Shown: positions 11,598-63,687 of the stretch, in pieces
Position numbering within the stretch: the stretch's first letter is position 1
How the letters are laid out: every line of letters begins with the position of its first letter
The notes under the pieces: model-generated
What the model was told of the DNA's origin: nothing
Seen by the model: only the letters and a program-made list of their open reading frames with translations
The model's database searches: none
Sequence record: MK962756
DNA: 64,000 nucleotides
Reading direction: 5' to 3' (one strand)
DNA from: Shigella phage JK42
Made by a program: the position numbers and the translations under genes

Positions 11598-12206
11598 TCA
11601 GTAACTGACAATAGACAGATTCCAGATTGTATAACGTCCATCTTGAATAATAGAATCTACACGCAGTGTAGTCCCTATAGGGAGCATAAATTCACATTCG
11701 TCGGATATAAGTCTAGCATTAGACCGTCTTGTCGCTTCAGGGAAAGCTCCATTGAACTCACAAGATGGCGCAGCCAGAATCATGTTAAGCATATGTTCAC
11801 GGAAGTTGAAAGCAAATGGTGCATCTTTGATGCAGAACATATTAAATGTTCCGTAAAAATTATACGAAGCAAAGTTACGTGCTACACCGAACACTGGGCT
11901 GAAGCTCATTACTCTGTCAAATTTAATAATACTACCAATGCCTTTATCATCAAGTGTGGCCATAGTTTTCTTAGAGATTCCACGATACATTGTCTCAGGA
12001 ACAGAAGACGTCCAATTTCTACGAACGATTGAACTTAACTCCTGTTGAATACAGTCTGGCTTGTTTTCCATACACTGCCAAAGGATGCTTTGTTCATTAT
12101 CGTTGAATTGACTATCAATTTCGTACTGCAATACATCTTGATATTCGGGGTTTTGAGCACGACGAACCATTTCTTCAATTTCACACTCGTTATACGGCAT
12201 AAACAT
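11598..12206 (-). CDS. modA: ModA-like ADP-ribosyltransferase
   Basis: 202 aa; paralogous to the next ORF; T4 gene order srd-modA-modB; contains YRG ... S-rich ... E pattern. Confidence 0.6.
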   Translation of the reverse strand: MFMPYNECEIEEMVRRAQNPEYQDVLQYEIDSQFNDNEQSILWQCMENKPDCIQQELSSIVRRNWTSSVPETMYRGISKKTMATLDDKGIGSIIKFDRVMSFSPVFGVARNFASYNFYGTFNMFCIKDAPFAFNFREHMLNMILAAPSCEFNGAFPEATRRSNARLISDECEFMLPIGTTLRVDSIIQDGRYTIWNLSIVSY

Positions 12207-12263
12207 TTAGGTTTCTCCTGTGGTTGATAAAGGTATAATATCATCATCGGAAGAGTTTGTACA

Positions 12264-12845
12264 CTAAAAATTCAACATTTTCAAATGAATGATTTTGTAT
12301 AATCGAGATAAAGGGTCATATTCTAAGTCTTCAATTTCCACAATCTCAAATCGAGAGATGCCTGAGACCATGTACTCTTGTTCAGATTCAATCATATCTA
12401 GTACATCGATACGAGTTTCTTCCATAACATGCTTAGGGTTCTTTCCGGCGAGTACAATGTTAACCATATTTTGGTAGTAATCAAAAATGAATGGAGCATT
12501 CCTGAGACTAAGAATAGTGTACGTCTGATATTCCCATCTCCCGGAGAATTGACGAGCTGTACTGAAATCAGTTGTGAACGACGTTACTCGTCCAGGAGAC
12601 CAATGGCAACCAACAGAAAGAAGTGAAAGACGTTCTACTTCTTCTGGAGTTACACCCCGGTAGAGTTCTACTGGTACTGTAGAAGTCATATGCTTACGAA
12701 CAAGATGGTCTAATTCATAGTGGAAATCCGGGTCTTCCTTAGAATCGGTGCAAGCCCAGAGAATGTTTTGTTCTTGGCGGGTGAATTTACTATCAATAAG
12801 ATTTGTTAGATATTCACGTTCTTGAAGTTCAGATTGACATGTCAT
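12264..12845 (-). CDS. modB: ModB-like ADP-ribosyltransferase
   Basis: 193 aa; shares blocks with the modA-like ORF (QNILWxC, VPxxLYRG); early promoter upstream at ~12869-12906. Confidence 0.6.
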   Translation of the reverse strand: MTCQSELQEREYLTNLIDSKFTRQEQNILWACTDSKEDPDFHYELDHLVRKHMTSTVPVELYRGVTPEEVERLSLLSVGCHWSPGRVTSFTTDFSTARQFSGRWEYQTYTILSLRNAPFIFDYYQNMVNIVLAGKNPKHVMEETRIDVLDMIESEQEYMVSGISRFEIVEIEDLEYDPLSRLYKIIHLKMLNF

Positions 12846-17258: not shown

Positions 17259-17918
17259 TTAACCTCGATTCATAAATGCATTAAATATTTGGTCATCAAC
17301 AGAAATTTCTAATTCGACTTCAATTGCTTCAGCCTTTTCTTCAGGTGGTAATTCGTATCCACACACTACAATTTTTTCATCGATATCAAAATATATAGAA
17401 GCAATACGATTAATGTTATTTTCAGTTAAGTCCAAATCAACATCAACATCTTTTTGGCCTACACTTAGAGGATAACTAATACGGGTTATTTTATTATCTT
17501 TAACAAAGAGTCCACCAACATACTCTGTACTACGTTTGAAGTTTACACGTTTCCGAATTGAAAGATATGATACATCTTTACCGTGAGCTCGGCTCATAGG
17601 ACATAATGAATAGCTAGAATAAGAGATGTCAAATCCTACACCTTCAATATGAGCCAACGTGTCATGATTAAACCAATTATAATCATATGCCAAATCCATT
17701 ATATTGTAATATGTGAAAGGCACAGGATTAACATCATATGTTGTACCTTTAAAATCTGCCCAGGCAACGATTTCGTTATCTTTAACAATTACAAAAATTA
17801 CACCAATATGGTATCCGTTATTATTTTCATTCGGCGTTATATTATAACATTGTGCATTAGGAAATTTACCATATTTAAATGGCGCATTTTTGTGCATATA
17901 ATAAATCATATTATTCAC
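17259..17918 (-). CDS. hypothetical protein
   Basis: 219-aa ORF. Confidence 0.5.
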   Translation of the reverse strand: MNNMIYYMHKNAPFKYGKFPNAQCYNITPNENNNGYHIGVIFVIVKDNEIVAWADFKGTTYDVNPVPFTYYNIMDLAYDYNWFNHDTLAHIEGVGFDISYSSYSLCPMSRAHGKDVSYLSIRKRVNFKRSTEYVGGLFVKDNKITRISYPLSVGQKDVDVDLDLTENNINRIASIYFDIDEKIVVCGYELPPEEKAEAIEVELEISVDDQIFNAFMNRG

Positions 17919-58704: not shown

Positions 58705-59015
58705 TAGTAAATTAGATAGATGTAGGCTCTAATTTTATTTTCATGAACTCGGCAAATTGTCTGGCAGTTTTTAATGCCTTGTTCATGACATTCAAATGCA
58801 TCATCACAGGGACTATTTTTGTAATGCTTTGCCATATACTTATAGAATTTTTCAGAATTCTCGACATTTTGAATTTCAAACAAAGTATATACGTTTTTAA
58901 TCCCTGATTCCATAAAGTTATCAAAATATGGGTCAATATGCGCAGTACCAACGATAGGAGTTGTTGCTGCAAAAAACCCCAGCATCGCTATGACAGCTAT
59001 CGCTCTTAAGGCCAT
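58704..59015 (-). CDS. secreted Cys-containing small protein
   Basis: 103 aa; signal peptide MALRAIAVIAMLGFFAATTPIVGTA; four Cys in the mature part. Confidence 0.5.
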   Translation of the reverse strand: MALRAIAVIAMLGFFAATTPIVGTAHIDPYFDNFMESGIKNVYTLFEIQNVENSEKFYKYMAKHYKNSPCDDAFECHEQGIKNCQTICRVHENKIRAYIYLIY

Positions 59016-59027
59016 ATAGGCCTCCTG

Positions 59028-59240
59028 TTAATTTTGGCCAGTATTTATTTTTCGCCTTTGGACGGCCTTAACATCTGCGAGGTATTTTTCCAGCTTGCGC
59101 TTGCGTGTATAATCAGCTTTAGAACCAGTTTGACGGATATCCTCGTTTAAATGAGAAATAGAATGTCCTAATTCTCTTCGGATTTCATCTAATTGGGTTA
59201 CAGTAAGATTACGAAGTTGTCTTTCGTTTAATTGCTGCAT
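59028..59240 (-). CDS. hypothetical small basic protein
   Basis: 70-aa ORF; TATAAATA late motif at 59265-59272. Confidence 0.45.
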
Positions 59241-59264
59241 ATATACCTCTTGGTTAGATATTAG

Positions 59265-59272
59265 TATTTATA
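59265..59272 (-). promoter_or_regulatory. late promoter motif TATAAATA
   Basis: Plus-strand tatttata ~25 nt upstream of the 59240 start; overlaps the tk stop. Confidence 0.4.
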
Positions 59273-59849
59273 ACAACCCTGTCAAATCATTCCAATGCTT
59301 CCGGCATAATGACACATATCTATCGGTATCACCAATTTCAATTTGACTGCCATCTGTAATTGGAAGTCCGTCTTCCGTGACTCTAGCTACCATTGTGGCC
59401 TTTTTACCACAATGACAGACACCTTTAAGTTCAACAAGCTTATCGGCAATAGCCATTAATGCTTGAGAACCTTCAAATAGATTACCTTTAAAATCTGTTC
59501 GTAGTCCATATGCCATTACCGGCACATTGTACACGTCAACAATACGACTAAGTTGATACACCTTTTCAGTAGTTAAGAACTGAGCTTCGTCAACAAATAC
59601 ACAATGAATATCCTTTTGTGCTGCAGCCCATTTATAAAATTCAAAGATATCCATGTCTTTTGTAATTATATTGGCATCCTGACGAATACCAATACGAGAG
59701 ACTATTTCACCTTTTGAATCGCGAGTATCAATAGCCGGTTTAAGAACTAATACACCCATGCCACGTTCTTTATAGTTATGTGCAGCAGTAAGTAATGAAG
59801 CAGACTTACCAGCGTTCATAGCGGCATAGGTAAAAATTAAACTAGCCAT
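59268..59849 (-). CDS. tk: thymidine kinase
   Basis: 193 aa; Walker A AAMNAGKS, zinc ribbon CHCGKKA...CRKHW; typical type II TK. Confidence 0.9.
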   Translation of the reverse strand: MASLIFTYAAMNAGKSASLLTAAHNYKERGMGVLVLKPAIDTRDSKGEIVSRIGIRQDANIITKDMDIFEFYKWAAAQKDIHCVFVDEAQFLTTEKVYQLSRIVDVYNVPVMAYGLRTDFKGNLFEGSQALMAIADKLVELKGVCHCGKKATMVARVTEDGLPITDGSQIEIGDTDRYVSLCRKHWNDLTGLL

Positions 59850-59858
59850 AAGAGTCCC

Positions 59859-60041
59859 TTATAGTGAATTCACATAGTCAATGAGTTCTTGTTCTTTCCT
59901 GTCAAATGATTCCAACAATGCTTGATATTCTTCGTCCGTCAAAGGAGCATATTCATCGTACGCATTGGTGGCTGCTTGCTCATCCAATAGGTCATGGATA
60001 AGTTCGAACAGTTTAGTTTTCTCTTCTTTAGTCAATTTCAT
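59859..60041 (-). CDS. hypothetical small acidic protein
   Basis: 60-aa ORF. Confidence 0.4.
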   Translation of the reverse strand: MKLTKEEKTKLFELIHDLLDEQAATNAYDEYAPLTDEEYQALLESFDRKEQELIDYVNSL

Positions 60042-60265
60042 TTAGGTTCACCTTCTTTAACGAAATCTGGGTAAGGGTAAAATCCTGAGTAAAACCCTTC
60101 ACCTTTATGATTGCTACAACCTTTGTTCGAACAGTAACACCAATAATCAAAATCACAAGCCATTTCGTCATTGCATAAAGCAAAAACTACAGGCCATTCG
60201 CATTTTTCGCATTTAGCACCTGTAAGAATTTTTGTTTGACTCATAGCCATGTCACCTTTAAGCAA
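60038..60265 (-). CDS. small Cys-rich (zinc-binding?) protein
   Basis: 75 aa; CEKCEW...C...C...CYC...C cluster. Confidence 0.4.
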   Translation of the reverse strand: MLKGDMAMSQTKILTGAKCEKCEWPVVFALCNDEMACDFDYWCYCSNKGCSNHKGEGFYSGFYPYPDFVKEGEPK

Positions 60266-60468
60266 TATTCTTCTACATGTTGTTTACGGCCTTTCTTATC
60301 AATAAAGGTATATTCAACGAATGTTCCGATGTAGTCTTTATCTACATCATGTGGACTATTAATTGGACATTTAGTACGACAAATGCGTTCCCATTGACGA
60401 ATAATTACTGCCTTATTCTTTGGATCGTATGGATGTGGATAATGTATATTCATAATAACGGTTCCCAA
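60241..60468 (-). CDS. hypothetical small protein
   Basis: 75-aa ORF. Confidence 0.4.
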   Translation of the reverse strand: MGTVIMNIHYPHPYDPKNKAVIIRQWERICRTKCPINSPHDVDKDYIGTFVEYTFIDKKGRKQHVEEYCLKVTWL

Positions 60469-60947
60469 TCAACAATCACAATTTCTAGTTTAGTAGAATA
60501 CGTATCTAAAATCTCTTCGATGACATCCCAGTTTCCACCACCAATACCTGCACCAATTCTTGGCATATAAATTACAGGCTTTATTATCTTATTCTTTCCG
60601 AATTCATTTAATTCTATTATACAATTCATTAAAGCAGAGTACTCAAAATTAGGTCCCGGCTCAAACTGTGTATAAAGATTAAAGCAATAAGCTTTATGGG
60701 TCTTAAAATATTTTTCATAAACCGAATAAGTCCCGAGTTTAGACTTGTCTCCGAATTCGGTTTGAAGTTTATCGGCTTCTAAAATTTTTGGATAAGCCTT
60801 TGCTAATTGGCCTGCTACACCGGCGCCCATTGTATGAAAACAATTACACCCATGAGCAATATTATTACCTTTAGAAAACAGGGCGACAATATCGCCCTTG
60901 ATATAGTTTTTAATCACTTGCTGCAAGTCCTCTATTATAAGAGTCAA
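60450..60947 (-). CDS. macro-domain protein (ADP-ribose binding/processing)
   Basis: 165 aa; NIAHGCNCFHTMGAGVAGQL fits the macrodomain N-x6-GGGVA-type motif; later IGAGIGGG glycine-rich loop. Confidence 0.65.
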   Translation of the reverse strand: MTLIIEDLQQVIKNYIKGDIVALFSKGNNIAHGCNCFHTMGAGVAGQLAKAYPKILEADKLQTEFGDKSKLGTYSVYEKYFKTHKAYCFNLYTQFEPGPNFEYSALMNCIIELNEFGKNKIIKPVIYMPRIGAGIGGGNWDVIEEILDTYSTKLEIVIVDWEPLL

Positions 60948-61257
60948 CTAGACGGTCCACCATAGAATTGCATGCTGCCTTATCTTTAGGTTCCGCCACC
61001 GAGCATTCTAATATTTGCCATTTTTTATAGTATCTTTTAATTAAGGTAGACGCCTTGAACCTACTAGACGCCCCGTCTTTTTCTCCGTCTTTATACGCAT
61101 ATAACAATTTTTGTGAAAAATCTACTTTACACTCTTGACTTTTACCACAGTAATCAGACGCCGTTCTGTTTGTATACTCCGTTACATCAGTATATGTAGT
61201 ATTAGCAAGAGCGTTAAATGAAACCAAGCCAACTATTAAAGCCAACATTTTGGTCAT
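60910..61257 (-). CDS. secreted Cys-containing protein
   Basis: 115 aa; signal peptide MTKMLALIVGLVSFNALA. Confidence 0.45.
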   Translation of the reverse strand: MTKMLALIVGLVSFNALANTTYTDVTEYTNRTASDYCGKSQECKVDFSQKLLYAYKDGEKDGASSRFKASTLIKRYYKKWQILECSVAEPKDKAACNSMVDRLVDSYNRGLAASD

Positions 61258-61796
61258 TCTTTTATTTCCAGTAGTTTATTTGATTTAAGGTAATTAGCCT
61301 TTTCTAGGACTTCAGAAGCATATTTACTTCCGGCACTTGTCTTCCATCCCGCATTATATGAGGATATAGCTTTTCTTATATCCCCGTTATGTATATTTAA
61401 CCAATAAGAAAATTCGATATAAGCCCATCTGGCTGAATTAGACCGCTTAGATAGCATTTTCTTAATTTGGGCATCAGTCATATTATAACCAAGCTGGTTA
61501 ATTCTTGCCCTCATTGTCGGTAGATAATTTTGGAACATTCCATACGCATGGTGACCTTTCTTATCTTTAAGATTAATACCGGCAGATGATTCCTGCCATA
61601 GTATTGCGGCCATTATGTATCCAAGTCCTTTCTTATGCATATTTTCATGCGTTTTAAATTTTCCATCCTTAGAAAACTGTTCCCCAAACTGATAAGCATA
61701 ATTCAAGTTATCGAGTTGGACATTACTAAAAGTATGCTCGGAGCTATGTGCTGATAATGAAAGAGCAAATAGACCAGCGAGTAGTGCTTTTCTCAT
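61254..61796 (-). CDS. secreted lytic-transglycosylase-like protein
   Basis: 180 aa; signal peptide; ...IMAAILWQESS...AYGMFQ resembles the SLT-domain catalytic ES and GLMQ-type motifs. Confidence 0.5.
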   Translation of the reverse strand: MRKALLAGLFALSLSAHSSEHTFSNVQLDNLNYAYQFGEQFSKDGKFKTHENMHKKGLGYIMAAILWQESSAGINLKDKKGHHAYGMFQNYLPTMRARINQLGYNMTDAQIKKMLSKRSNSARWAYIEFSYWLNIHNGDIRKAISSYNAGWKTSAGSKYASEVLEKANYLKSNKLLEIKE

Positions 61797-61804
61797 GTTT
61801 ACCT

Positions 61805-62263
61805 CTAGATTTTAATCACTGCTTTAGAAGCTTTTCCTGGTAGTCGTTTGTTGTTAATAATAGCCATTCTGCATTGAAGAGTCTTCATTTTGAATGCCGG
61901 ATTTTCGCGACAAACTGTAAGTCCTAACCAAAGATTTCCATCAGTTATTTCTAAACGACCCGGGCGATATTCGACACCTTCGACAAAATCTTCATCAACA
62001 TCTGGACGTGCCGGCATTGATAAAAATTCTGCAACTTCTTTAACATGATTTTTTACTTTATGAAATAATTCAAAAACGTAATTCTCATCTATTTCTCTCT
62101 GGATGGCACGATCTAAGAGATGTTGAGAATACTTGATATGAAAGCCTGGTAGTCCAAGAGACTTTGCAGCATCTTTTATACCGGCATTTATTTTGCGGAA
62201 CTCCGTTTCAAAGATTCGACGGAGTTTATTACGGCGGATAAAAACGTCTGAATTGATAGTCAT
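61805..62263 (-). CDS. regB: RegB site-specific endoribonuclease
   Basis: 152 aa; MTINSDVFIRRNKLRR...HIKYSQHLLDRAIQREIDENYVFELFHK...RLEITDGNLWLG...QCRMAIIN..RLPGKASKAVIK matches remembered T4 RegB. Confidence 0.9.
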   Translation of the reverse strand: MTINSDVFIRRNKLRRIFETEFRKINAGIKDAAKSLGLPGFHIKYSQHLLDRAIQREIDENYVFELFHKVKNHVKEVAEFLSMPARPDVDEDFVEGVEYRPGRLEITDGNLWLGLTVCRENPAFKMKTLQCRMAIINNKRLPGKASKAVIKI

Positions 62264-62324
62264 TTTGATTTCTCCTCTAGTTGACAGGTCTATAGTAACA
62301 CAACTAGAGGAGAAGTAAACTACT

Positions 62325-62540
62325 TTATTGATAAAATGGAGTTAAAGCCCAAGATTCTTTAGATACCATATTGGCGAAATGCCTCATCTCTTCGATTTGG
62401 CGTCGACGCTGGTCAGCATAGTCTTCTTCGCCTTCTTCCTTACAATCTTCAAGGTCTTCTTCAAGATACTTTAAGTATTCACTACAAATTTTGTTGACCT
62501 TTTCTTGAAAGTCCAATAACCCAGTAATAGTAGAAGCCAT
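62325..62540 (-). CDS. hypothetical small acidic protein
   Basis: 71-aa ORF. Confidence 0.4.
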   Translation of the reverse strand: MASTITGLLDFQEKVNKICSEYLKYLEEDLEDCKEEGEEDYADQRRRQIEEMRHFANMVSKESWALTPFYQ

Positions 62541-62806
62541 TAGTATTTTTCCTCAGGTCGAAATACTGCACGACACGCCCACATGCTGGCTTCTTTTAGA
62601 TGTTGCTTAGCATACTTAAGAGCCTGCACTGCATCCATATCTTCTTTGGTTTGTTGCTCTGTTTCATTTTCTTTCAAGATATATGCTTCTTCAATCAGAG
62701 CATCAAACAACAATCCAAGACGGACTTCTGCATCTTTAATAGCGTTCACTTTACCGATTTTATCATCGGTATGCGGCTTGTAGCCTTTGATGTCTTCAAT
62801 CGACAT
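62540..62806 (-). CDS. hypothetical protein
   Basis: ORF-track 62540..62974 shortened to the internal ATG at 62806, which has GAGGA upstream. Confidence 0.4.
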   Translation of the reverse strand: MSIEDIKGYKPHTDDKIGKVNAIKDAEVRLGLLFDALIEEAYILKENETEQQTKEDMDAVQALKYAKQHLKEASMWACRAVFRPEEKY

Positions 62807-63020
62807 AAGGAATTTCCTCATCGGTGGCAAGGTCATATTCGACCAATTGGATAGGCTCATTAATACCATATCCACGTACAGTGATATCAGTTGTCGGATA
62901 GTTTCCAGTAATATCACCCATTCTAAATGATTCAATGAATGATTGCTCGCCTGAGCAACTAAACCAGGCGGCAAAACATTTTAAAACATCTTCAGACCCT
63001 TCTATAATCAATTTAGCCAT
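62796..63020 (-). CDS. hypothetical small acidic protein
   Basis: 74-aa ORF. Confidence 0.4.
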   Translation of the reverse strand: MAKLIIEGSEDVLKCFAAWFSCSGEQSFIESFRMGDITGNYPTTDITVRGYGINEPIQLVEYDLATDEEIPYVD

Positions 63021-63382
63021 TATAGACTCTCAGTAAAGGTACGAGCGATAACGTCGCGCTGCTGTTCTGGAGTCAGAGAGTTAAAGCGAACTGCATAACC
63101 GGATACACGGATGGTCAGCTGCGGATATTTTTCTGGATGCTTAACTGCATCTTCTAGAGTTTCACGACGCAGAACGTTAACGTTCAGATGTTGACCACCT
63201 TCAATTTTAACTTTAGGGTGATGTTCAATTTCAATTTCACGGGCATGCAAACCGTAGAAAATTTCCGGGTCTACAATAGCGTCTTCTTTAAAAGTCTTAG
63301 AGACAATAATCCGGGCTTGAGTACCGTCTTCAAAATAAATAGTGCCTTTGTGTGTGCCTTCAAGAATTTGATATGCTTTCAT
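63020..63382 (-). CDS. autonomous glycyl-radical cofactor (GrcA/YfiD-like)
   Basis: 120 aa; C-terminal ...[16 protein letters not shown]... is the glycyl-radical signature (RVSGY). Confidence 0.7.
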
Positions 63383-63388
63383 ATAACC

Positions 63389-63687
63389 TCAATTAGAAAA
63401 TAAATTTATCCAAGTTTTTTCTTTAATCAAAAATGGGTCGGAATTAAACGCCATTAAACTTTGAGTGATTAATCCCTTAAATGGCCCATCAATAAATTCC
63501 ATTTTGAAATGTGGAATACTAGTCATCAGTCGTGCATTAGGAGCAGTACAAAGAACCTGCTGACCTGCGAACGGACCTTTAGTCAAACGATATCGTTTAG
63601 GTTTAAAATGGTAAATCTCATAATTTTCTACAAGAGCCCTTTTATTGCATACCGGGCTATTATAACAATATTCAAAAACTTCAATAG
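63389..63687 (-). CDS. hypothetical protein
   Basis: ORF-track 63389..63760 shortened to the ATG overlapping the upstream stop (ATGATGA). Confidence 0.4.

What the first reader, a model, noticed from the sequence alone, without database searches (positions are those of the whole stretch)
60450..60947. Macro-domain protein downstream of tk in a genome encoding ModA/ModB-like ADP-ribosyltransferases
The 165-aa ORF has a macrodomain-like ADP-ribose-binding motif (NIAHGCNCFHTMGAGVAGQL and a later IGAGIGGG loop). With the ModA/ModB-like ADP-ribosyltransferase pair at 11598-12845, the phage may encode both writers and an eraser or reader of ADP-ribosylation. Alternatively it could counter host ADP-ribosylating defences.
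Basis: partly seen in the sequence, partly recalled or inferred. Interest (0 to 1): 0.5.

Follow-up and report, generated by a model that had tools for sequence, protein, structure and literature searches.

The report
T4 tk.4/AdfM macrodomain, anti-DarT2 factor
This is the well-conserved tk.4 macrodomain gene of T4-like phages; its T4 counterpart was recently shown to protect the phage from the bacterial DarTG2 defence, which ADP-ribosylates DNA, so the finding is real but already known.

Summary

The window is a Mosigvirus-like T4 relative. The gene is the syntenic ortholog of T4 tk.4: 85% identity, no gaps, dN/dS about 0.07. tk.4 has been annotated as an A1pp/macro 'phosphatase' since at least 2006.

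A 2025 preprint (HIDEN-SEQ) found tk.4 to be the only significant T4 hit in its DarTG2 screen. A tk.4 knockout became DarTG2-sensitive, and the gene was renamed adfM. The writer/eraser pairing with ModA/ModB is not supported: Tk.4-like genes occur in about 2,800 phage records, Mod-like genes in about 1,080.

One mechanistic point: Tk.4 is not DarG-like in detail. DarG's catalytic Lys80 is an invariant Gln84 here. The same Gln is found in SCO6735, a proven Lys-independent thymidine-ADP-ribose DNA hydrolase, and in its close relative Bt_1257. No biochemistry exists for the Tk.4 type.

Verdict: already known, low interest.

The parts
60450..60917 (-). tk.4 / adfM coding sequence (155 aa, GTG start, TGA stop at 60450-60452): a single-domain macrodomain protein
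   Evidence: ORF. 85% identity, no gaps, to T4 Tk.4 over 155 aa. JK36 annotates the same 468-nt CDS as 'macro domain-containing protein'. Pfam Macro 28.4 bits. AF2 pLDDT 96.1.
60918..60947 (-).
   Evidence: No Shine-Dalgarno before the TTG. Homologs align from residue 11. T4 starts at the position of the GTG.
60928..60932 (-). Shine-Dalgarno GAGGA, 10 nt upstream of the GTG start
   Evidence: Read from the sequence. T4 has the same GAGGA 11 nt upstream of its ATG.
60910..60917 (-). GTGATTAA: the tk.4 start codon overlaps the end of vs (vs stop TAA at 60910-60912)
   Evidence: ORF coordinates and sequence. T4 has an ATGA overlap at the same junction.
60813..60854 (-). Motif H22-G-C-N25-C-F-H-T-M-G-A-G-V-A35: conserved Asn plus the first Gly-rich (phosphate-binding) loop
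   Evidence: G23, N25, C26, G33 and A35 are invariant in 97 homologs; H22 in 95/97. N25 aligns with PhiKZ AdfM N23 and with SCO6735 N27 and the DarG Asn.
60666..60680 (-). N80-L-Y-T-Q84 strand; Q84 occupies the position of DarG Lys80, TARG1 Lys84 and SCO6735 Gln85
   Evidence: N80, Y82 and Q84 are invariant in 97/97. hhalign places NLYTQ on DarG NFPTK. MAFFT puts Q84 in one column with the Gln of BT1257 and SCO6735 and the Lys of DarG and PhiKZ.
60528..60563 (-). P119-R-I-G-A-G-I-G-G-G-N-W130: second Gly-rich loop (substrate/diphosphate binding)
   Evidence: P119, I121, G122 and G124 are invariant. It aligns with SCO6735 PRIGCGLAGG (Gly126/Gly128) and DarG PPLGAGNGGL.
60450..60453 (-). ATGA overlap: tk.4 stop (TGA) and tk.3 start (ATG), suggesting translational coupling
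   Evidence: Sequence. JK36 CDS boundaries.

Best explanation
The gene is the ortholog of T4 tk.4, renamed adfM (anti-DarT factor, macrodomain). It encodes a small stand-alone macrodomain of the ALC1-like class (TARG1, DarG, SCO6735, Poa1p). It sits in the early-gene cluster regB, vs.1, vs, tk.4, tk.3, tk.

Its most likely job is to protect replicating phage DNA from the host DarTG2 toxin-antitoxin defence. DarT2 puts ADP-ribose on N3 of thymidine in single-stranded TNTC motifs and so blocks replication. The macrodomain binds the ADP-ribose in its Gly-loop cleft and hydrolyses the ribose-thymine bond, releasing ADP-ribose and intact DNA.

Unlike DarG and TARG1, it has no catalytic lysine. An invariant Gln84, held by the invariant Asn25, would position the distal ribose for water-mediated cleavage, as proposed for Streptomyces SCO6735.

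What is shown and what is inferred:
- Shown here: domain identity, orthology, class placement and residue equivalences.
- Shown by others for T4: loss of tk.4 sensitises the phage to DarTG2.
- Inferred: transfer of that phenotype to this phage, direct DNA de-ADP-ribosylation, and the Gln-type mechanism.
For: Orthology: 85% identity and 95% similarity, no gaps, to T4 Tk.4. The position between vs and tk.3 is the same. dN/dS is 0.067.

Genetics in T4: tk.4 was the single significant hit in a transposon screen on a DarTG2 host, and a clean knockout became DarTG2-sensitive (bioRxiv 10.1101/2025.11.20.689424). Earlier work showed that T4 lacking adfA and adfN is still DarTG2-resistant, which predicted a further factor (PMC11825919).

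Class placement:
- Family profile against PDB: BT1257 4.6e-18, TARG1 1.6e-16, SCO6735 5e-15, Mtb DarG 1.5e-13, Poa1p 2.4e-13; the next hit is 1.8e-4.
- hhalign to DarG-type sequences: probability 98.85%, E 4e-17.
- PADLOC DarG model: 1.6e-9.

Mechanism: Q84 is invariant in 97/97 homologs. It aligns with SCO6735 Gln85 and DarG Lys80. SCO6735 cleaves DarT-made thymidine-ADPr faster than DarG and rescues DarT toxicity. Its Q85A/E mutants are dead and N27S is nearly dead (PMC9411070).

Precedent: a phage macrodomain of another lineage, PhiKZ gp104, removes DarT2 ADP-ribose from DNA in vitro (PMC13309987).
Against: - No biochemical assay exists for any Tk.4-type protein. The T4 result is a preprint and its mechanism is stated only as 'seems likely'.
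- This phage is a Mosigvirus, not T4, and its protein differs at 23 of 155 residues.
- Tk.4 lacks the 5-residue 'mobile loop' insertion with Lys89/Lys94, which contributes to DNA activity in SCO6735.
- It falls far below the DarG equivalog cut-off: 32.7 against 250 bits.
- By sequence and fold it is about as close to Poa1p, an ADP-ribose-1''-phosphatase, as to DarG.
- T-even DNA carries glucosyl-hmC, so the TNTC target differs from that in the published in vitro assays.
Confidence: 0.72

Rival explanations
1. Eraser or reader for the phage's own ADP-ribosyltransferases (Alt, ModA, ModB). The macrodomain would remove or sense ADP-ribose, or ADP-ribose-linked RNA, that the phage enzymes place on host proteins, forming a writer/eraser circuit.
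For: ModA/ModB-like genes are in the same window. SCO6735 and TARG1 also cleave Glu/Asp-linked protein ADP-ribose, so a protein substrate is chemically possible for this class.
Against: - Alt, ModA and ModB modify arginine (PMC8120803). Arg-ADPr cleavage is the job of ARH/DraG-type enzymes and has not been described for ALC1-like macrodomains (established knowledge).
- Tk.4-like genes are in 2,798 phage records and Mod-like genes in 1,078; many Tk.4 carriers belong to phage groups that did not appear among the Mod hits.
- The genes are about 48 kb apart.
- In T4, tk.4 insertions lost read counts specifically in the presence of DarTG2.
Confidence: 0.06
2. Small-molecule ADP-ribose-derivative hydrolase. 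This is the historical 'A1pp phosphatase' annotation: ADP-ribose-1''-phosphate phosphatase or O-acetyl-ADP-ribose deacetylase. Alternatively it degrades an NAD-derived immune signal or toxin. Any DarTG2 effect would be indirect or a second activity.
For: - A shared H-x-C-N-C motif, with Thr29 at the position of Poa1p Ser30 (alignment).
- T4 and RefSeq annotate 'phosphatase'.
- A comparative-genomics survey argued that phage macrodomains mostly target soluble ADPr derivatives (PMC9503650).
Against: - The only phenotype on record is specific to DarTG2, a DNA-modifying system.
- No source of ADPr-1''-phosphate is known in T4 infection (inference).
Confidence: 0.14
3. Non-catalytic protection. The macrodomain binds ADP-ribosylated DNA or DarT2 itself and shields or sequesters it without hydrolysis.
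For: The catalytic Lys of DarG/TARG1 is absent. Some macrodomains are pure readers (established knowledge). The other T-even factor, AdfA, is described as a direct DarT inhibitor.
Against: - Gln at this position is compatible with fast catalysis in SCO6735.
- The strict invariance of N25, Q84 and the Gly loops across 97 homologs down to 37% identity is the pattern of an active site.
- There is no extra domain that could bind DarT2, unlike DarG's C-terminal domain.
Confidence: 0.05

Closest known systems
Phage T4 Tk.4 = AdfM (NP_049723; bioRxiv 10.1101/2025.11.20.689424)
   Same: Ortholog: 155 aa, 85% identity without gaps, same neighbours (vs upstream, tk.3 downstream), and the same invariant residues.
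   Different: GTG instead of ATG start. 23 substitutions, for example Gly127 where T4 has Lys; Gly is the family consensus. The host phage is Mosigvirus-like rather than Tequatrovirus T4. The anti-DarTG2 phenotype has not been tested in this phage.
Streptomyces coelicolor SCO6735 / Bacteroides Bt_1257 (Gln-type ALC1-like macrodomains; PDB 5E3B, 2FG1)
   Different: Only 24-32% identity. Tk.4 lacks the 5-residue longer 'mobile loop' with its lysines. It has family-specific invariants: C26, D49, Y82 and the HGCNCFHTMGAG motif. It is a phage gene, not a cellular DNA-damage-inducible gene.
DarG antitoxin macrodomain (T. aquaticus 5M31/5M3E, M. tuberculosis 5M3I; NCBIfam NF048014)
   Different: The catalytic Lys80 (FPTK) is Gln here. 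There is no C-terminal DarT-binding domain and no adjacent darT. The score is 32.7 bits against a 250-bit equivalog cut-off.
PhiKZ gp104 'AdfM' (Cell Rep 2026, PMC13309987)
   Same: A stand-alone phage macrodomain that counters DarTG2. It carries the same name, and the conserved Asn (N23) equals N25 here.
   Different: A different lineage. gp104 is a close DarG homolog (E 9e-25 to Mtb DarG; PADLOC DarG 132.9 bits; FPTK lysine present). Tk.4 shares only a 23-residue BLASTP match with it. gp104 has in vitro biochemistry; Tk.4 does not.
Human TARG1/OARD1 and yeast Poa1p
   Same: Same ALC1-like class. Foldseek E 3e-10 and 9e-10. TARG1 also reverses thymidine-ADPr.
   Different: The TARG1 Lys84/Asp125 dyad corresponds to Gln84/Gly126 here. 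The Lys84 equivalence comes from the alignments and PMC9411070. The Asp125 equivalence was read by eye against a TARG1 sequence recalled from memory. Poa1p is known as an ADPr-1''-phosphatase.

Membership tests
Macro domain superfamily (Pfam PF01661) | Profile score above the curated gathering threshold over the whole domain | tested here: met
   28.4 bits against a cut-off of 22, profile positions 2-117 of 118.
Macro domain superfamily (Pfam PF01661) | Three-layer alpha/beta/alpha macro fold | tested here: met
Macro domain superfamily (Pfam PF01661) | Conserved Asn and two Gly-rich ADP-ribose-binding loops | tested here: met
   N25, G31/G33 and G122/G124 are invariant or nearly invariant.
Macro domain superfamily (Pfam PF01661) | Binds ADP-ribose | not testable with these tools
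   Needs ITC, thermal shift or a co-crystal.
T4 Tk.4 / AdfM orthologous group | Full-length high identity to T4 Tk.4 | tested here: met
   132/155 identical, no gaps.
T4 Tk.4 / AdfM orthologous group | Conserved position between vs and tk.3 in the regB-tk cluster | tested here: met
   T4 annotation, JK36 annotation, PHROG hits of the neighbours.
T4 Tk.4 / AdfM orthologous group | Needed for growth on a DarTG2 host | not testable with these tools
   Shown for T4 only, in a preprint.
DarG antitoxin (NCBIfam NF048014 equivalog) | Score above the equivalog cut-off | tested here: not met
   32.7 bits against 250.
DarG antitoxin (NCBIfam NF048014 equivalog) | Catalytic lysine (Taq Lys80, FPTK motif) | tested here: not met
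   Gln84, invariant in 97/97 homologs.
DarG antitoxin (NCBIfam NF048014 equivalog) | C-terminal DarT-binding domain and an adjacent darT gene | tested here: not met
   The protein is 155 aa with a single domain and matches only positions 4-146 of the 338-position model. Its neighbours are vs and tk.3.
SCO6735/Bt_1257 Gln-type subclass of ALC1-like macrodomains | Gln at the TARG1/DarG lysine position, positioned by the conserved Asn | tested here: met
   Q84 and N25 fall in the same alignment columns as Q85 and N27. The roles of these residues are from PMC9411070.
SCO6735/Bt_1257 Gln-type subclass of ALC1-like macrodomains | Five-residue longer 'mobile loop' after the Gln, with Lys89/Lys94 | tested here: not met
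   Tk.4 has the short loop QFEPGPNFEY. BT1257 and SCO6735 carry the 5-residue insertion.
SCO6735/Bt_1257 Gln-type subclass of ALC1-like macrodomains | Hydrolyses thymidine-linked ADP-ribose on ssDNA | not testable with these tools
   Needs a gel-shift assay on a DarT-modified oligonucleotide.
Poa1p-like ADP-ribose-1''-phosphatase | Poa1p residues probed by mutation (His23, Ser30) are conserved | tested here: inconclusive
   His22 is present in 95/97. Position 29 is Thr in 64/97 and variable otherwise. The PDB titles show only that H23A and S30A mutants were made.
PhiKZ-type AdfM (gp104) | Close DarG-like sequence with the FPTK lysine | tested here: not met
   BLASTP aligns only 23 residues, E 6e-4. 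gp104 scores 132.9 bits on PADLOC DarG against 35.7 here.

The most novel reading that the evidence does not exclude
Besides countering DarT2, the Tk.4-type macrodomain also trims ADP-ribose, or ADP-ribose-linked RNA, placed by the phage's own Alt/ModA/ModB enzymes. SCO6735 and TARG1 accept both DNA and protein substrates. T-even phages would then have a true writer/eraser circuit. A more modest version: Tk.4 defines a third, lysine-independent and short-loop lineage of thymidine-ADPr hydrolases, recruited by phages independently of the DarG-like PhiKZ AdfM.
Probability: 0.07. Interest if true: 0.55.

Novelty: already known. Interest (0 to 1): 0.2.

Why it matters
It adds little that is new. 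The macrodomain nature of tk.4 has been in the literature and in GenBank annotations for about 20 years. Its anti-DarTG2 role was reported for T4 in 2025.

The useful residue is mechanistic. The widespread Tk.4 family (about 2,800 phage genomes) has an invariant Gln where DarG and TARG1 have their catalytic Lys. The two phage proteins now both called 'AdfM' (T4 Tk.4 and PhiKZ gp104) therefore belong to different macrodomain lineages and probably use different chemistry. That matters for anyone predicting phage resistance to DarTG2, designing DarG-type inhibitors, or transferring the PhiKZ biochemistry to T4-like therapeutic phages.

Tried and rejected
- The 165-aa TTG start was rejected in favour of GTG 60917.
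- DarG membership was rejected on score, the catalytic Lys, domain architecture and gene context.
- The pairwise phmmer alignment to BT1257 put the NLYTQ strand out of register because the loops differ in length. MAFFT and hhalign resolved this.
- An hmmsearch of all six-frame ORFs found no second macrodomain in the window. The only other hit was E 0.0023 and is not credible.
- The sigma-70 promoter scan of 59000-63500 was below chance (12 found, 16 expected), so no promoter was assigned.
- A MotA-box pattern search found no candidate directly upstream of tk.4, only one inside it.
- Literature searches for Poa1p mechanism and for 'tk.4' plus 'bacteriophage T4' gave only the old domain annotation and a strain polymorphism.
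- I did not scan bacterial genomes for Tk.4-type genes next to darT. I judged this unnecessary for the verdict.

Full report
**Observation**

The window has an open reading frame on the minus strand at 60450..60947.

It is a macrodomain by every test applied:
- Pfam Macro PF01661: 28.4 bits against a gathering score of 22, covering positions 2-117 of the 118-position profile.
- PHROG 335: E 2.7e-66.
- Sequence hits to solved macrodomains: BT1257, Poa1p, SCO6735, DarG, TARG1.
- An AlphaFold2 model built on 97 homologs: mean pLDDT 96.1, pTM 0.91.

Two details need correcting.

The start codon is almost certainly GTG at 60917, giving 155 aa:
- T4 Tk.4 begins with ATG at the aligned position.
- Both phages have GAGGA 10-11 nt upstream.
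- The 99.5%-identical phage JK36 annotates a 468-nt CDS with exactly these ends.
- Most homologs align only from residue 11 of the long ORF.

The gene is also on the minus strand. In the direction of transcription the order is regB, vs.1, vs, tk.4, tk.3, two small ORFs, tk. The macrodomain gene therefore precedes tk.

**What the window is**

The 3.3 kb around the gene is 99.0-99.6% identical to Escherichia phage APCEc01, Shigella phages JK36 and JK45, and vB_Eco_mar005P1. JK36 is classified as Straboviridae, Tevenvirinae, Mosigvirus.

These records already annotate the gene as 'macro domain-containing protein', 'Poa1p_like family protein with Macro domain' or 'phosphatase'. In T4 the gene is tk.4 (NP_049723, 'phosphatase; contains A1pp phosphatase motif') and lies between vs and tk.3.

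The window protein is 85% identical and 95% similar to T4 Tk.4 over all 155 residues, with no gap. Nucleotide identity is 81% and dN/dS is about 0.07, so the gene is under strong purifying selection.

The gene is tightly packed with its neighbours:
- Its GTG overlaps the end of vs (GTGATTAA).
- Its TGA overlaps the ATG of tk.3 (ATGA).

The A1pp match of tk.4 orthologs was already reported in 2006 (PMC1524935).

**What is known about function**

A full-text search found a November 2025 preprint (HIDEN-SEQ, 10.1101/2025.11.20.689424). In a transposon library of T4 grown on a DarTG2-expressing host, tk.4 was the single significant hit. A clean tk.4 knockout became sensitive to DarTG2. The authors renamed the gene adfM (anti-DarT factor, macrodomain). 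They suggest, without biochemistry, that it removes ADP-ribose from DNA.

This fits earlier work showing that T4 lacking both AdfA (61.2) and AdfN (30.3) is still DarTG2-resistant (PMC11825919).

Independently, a 2026 Cell Reports paper used the same name for PhiKZ gp104. It showed in vitro that gp104 removes DarT2-made ADP-ribose from an oligonucleotide, and that N23A weakens the activity (PMC13309987).

**Where the protein sits among macrodomains**

A profile of 97 homologs, reaching down to 37% identity, was searched against all PDB sequences:

| PDB hit | E-value |
|---|---|
| BT1257 | 4.6e-18 |
| TARG1 | 1.6e-16 |
| SCO6735 | 5e-15 |
| M. tuberculosis DarG | 1.5e-13 |
| Poa1p | 2.4e-13 |
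| T. aquaticus DarG | 1.4e-11 |
| coronavirus nsp3 macrodomains (next hit) | 1.8e-4 |

It is not a DarG:
- It scores 32.7 bits on the NCBIfam DarG equivalog model, whose cut-off is 250.
- It matches only the macrodomain part of that model.
- It has no C-terminal DarT-binding domain.
- It has no darT neighbour.

PhiKZ gp104, in contrast, is a close DarG relative: E 9e-25 to Mtb DarG and 132.9 bits on PADLOC DarG, against 35.7 for Tk.4. It shares only a 23-residue BLASTP match with Tk.4. The two 'AdfM' proteins are thus different lineages of the same class.

**Active site**

In the 97-sequence alignment the invariant positions are G23, N25, C26, G33, A35, D49, G62, N80, Y82, Q84, P119, I121, G122 and G124.

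A profile-profile alignment to DarG-type sequences (probability 98.85%, E 4e-17) places the Tk.4 strand N-L-Y-T-Q84 on DarG N-F-P-T-K. That lysine is Lys80, the catalytic residue of T. aquaticus DarG and the equivalent of TARG1 Lys84 (PMC9411070).

A MAFFT alignment puts Q84 in one column with the Lys of three DarG-type sequences and with the Gln of BT1257 and SCO6735. At first sight this argues against a DarG-like activity.

The SCO6735 paper resolves the point (PMC9411070):
- SCO6735 is 54% identical to Bt_1257 and has Gln85 at this position.
- It cleaves DarT-made thymidine-ADP-ribose on ssDNA faster than DarG or TARG1.
- It rescues E. coli from DarT.
- It is inactivated by Q85A/E and nearly inactivated by N27S.
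- The authors propose a water-mediated mechanism in which Gln85, locked by Asn27, positions the distal ribose.

Tk.4 has the same pair (N25, Q84) and the same Gly126/Gly128-type loop (G122, G124).

It differs in two ways. It lacks the five-residue longer 'mobile loop' with lysines that characterises the SCO6735/Bt_1257 subclass. It also has its own invariant residues (C26, D49, Y82).

The most likely mechanism is therefore lysine-independent, Gln-assisted hydrolysis of thymidine-linked ADP-ribose on phage DNA. This step is inferred, not shown.

The ModA/ModB-like pair at 11598-12206 and 12264-12845 is real; both hit phrog_832 at about 1e-37. Nothing ties the macrodomain to it:
- tblastn finds Tk.4-like genes in 2,798 phage records. 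These include Pseudomonas, Vibrio, Acinetobacter and Aeromonas phages and rV5-like, Vi01-like and other groups.
- Mod-like genes are in 1,078 records, mostly T4-like phages of enterobacteria.
- Alt, ModA and ModB modify arginine (PMC8120803). The characterised activities of this macrodomain class are on Glu/Asp esters and thymidine.
- In T4, tk.4 insertions lost read counts specifically in the presence of DarTG2.

The writer/eraser reading is therefore unlikely (about 6%). The alternative reading, counter-defence against host ADP-ribosylation, is supported.

**Remaining rivals**

- A small-molecule ADPr-derivative hydrolase, the old 'phosphatase' label. This rests on similarity to Poa1p and on a comparative-genomics argument about phage macrodomains (PMC9503650).
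- A non-catalytic binder.

I give these about 14% and 5%.

**Verdict**

The gene is an already known member of an already characterised phage family.

The one point worth carrying forward is that the Tk.4-type AdfM is a Gln-type enzyme of a different lineage from DarG and PhiKZ gp104. No biochemical data exist for it. This is an easy experiment: the purified protein on DarT2-modified oligonucleotides, with Q84A, Q84K and N25A variants.

Noticed in passing
window 17262-17909 (-): Homolog of T4 gp61.2 (AdfA, the anti-DarT1 factor): 65% identity over 216 aligned positions, E 1e-87. The window therefore carries two anti-DarT genes. No NCBIfam match.
   Followed up: partly
window 60880-60898 (-), inside the 5' end of tk.4: A strong hairpin (AGGGCGAT-ATT-GTCGCCCT, 8 pairs) followed by GTTTTCT, about 20 nt after the tk.4 start and just after the vs stop. 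The same hairpin is present in T4. Some GenBank records annotate a terminator here. It could be an attenuator or RNA-stability element between vs and tk.4.
   Followed up: partly
window 60611-60636 (-), inside tk.4: A MotA-box-like middle-promoter pattern (TGCTTTA-N13-TAGAAT), oriented to drive tk.3-tk. The pattern is enriched across the window: 40 matches against 15 expected.
   Followed up: no
window 60910-61257 (-) and 61254-61796 (-): The products of vs ('valyl-tRNA synthetase modifier') and vs.1 both start with signal-peptide-like N-termini (MTKMLALIVGLVSFNALA and MRKALLAGLFALSLSAHS). This is odd for a cytoplasmic tRNA-synthetase modifier. vs.1 is mis-annotated as 'endoribonuclease' in JK36 but as an SLT transglycosylase elsewhere.
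   Followed up: no
window 60038-60265 (-): A small Cys-rich ORF between tk.3 and tk (…CEKCEW…CNDEMACDFDYWCYCSNKGCSNH…). It looks zinc-binding and has no assigned function.
   Followed up: no
literature (PMC13309987 versus 10.1101/2025.11.20.689424): The name AdfM is used for two phage macrodomains of different lineages. PhiKZ gp104 is DarG-like with the catalytic Lys. T4 Tk.4 is Gln-type. Transferring annotation between them would be misleading.
   Followed up: yes
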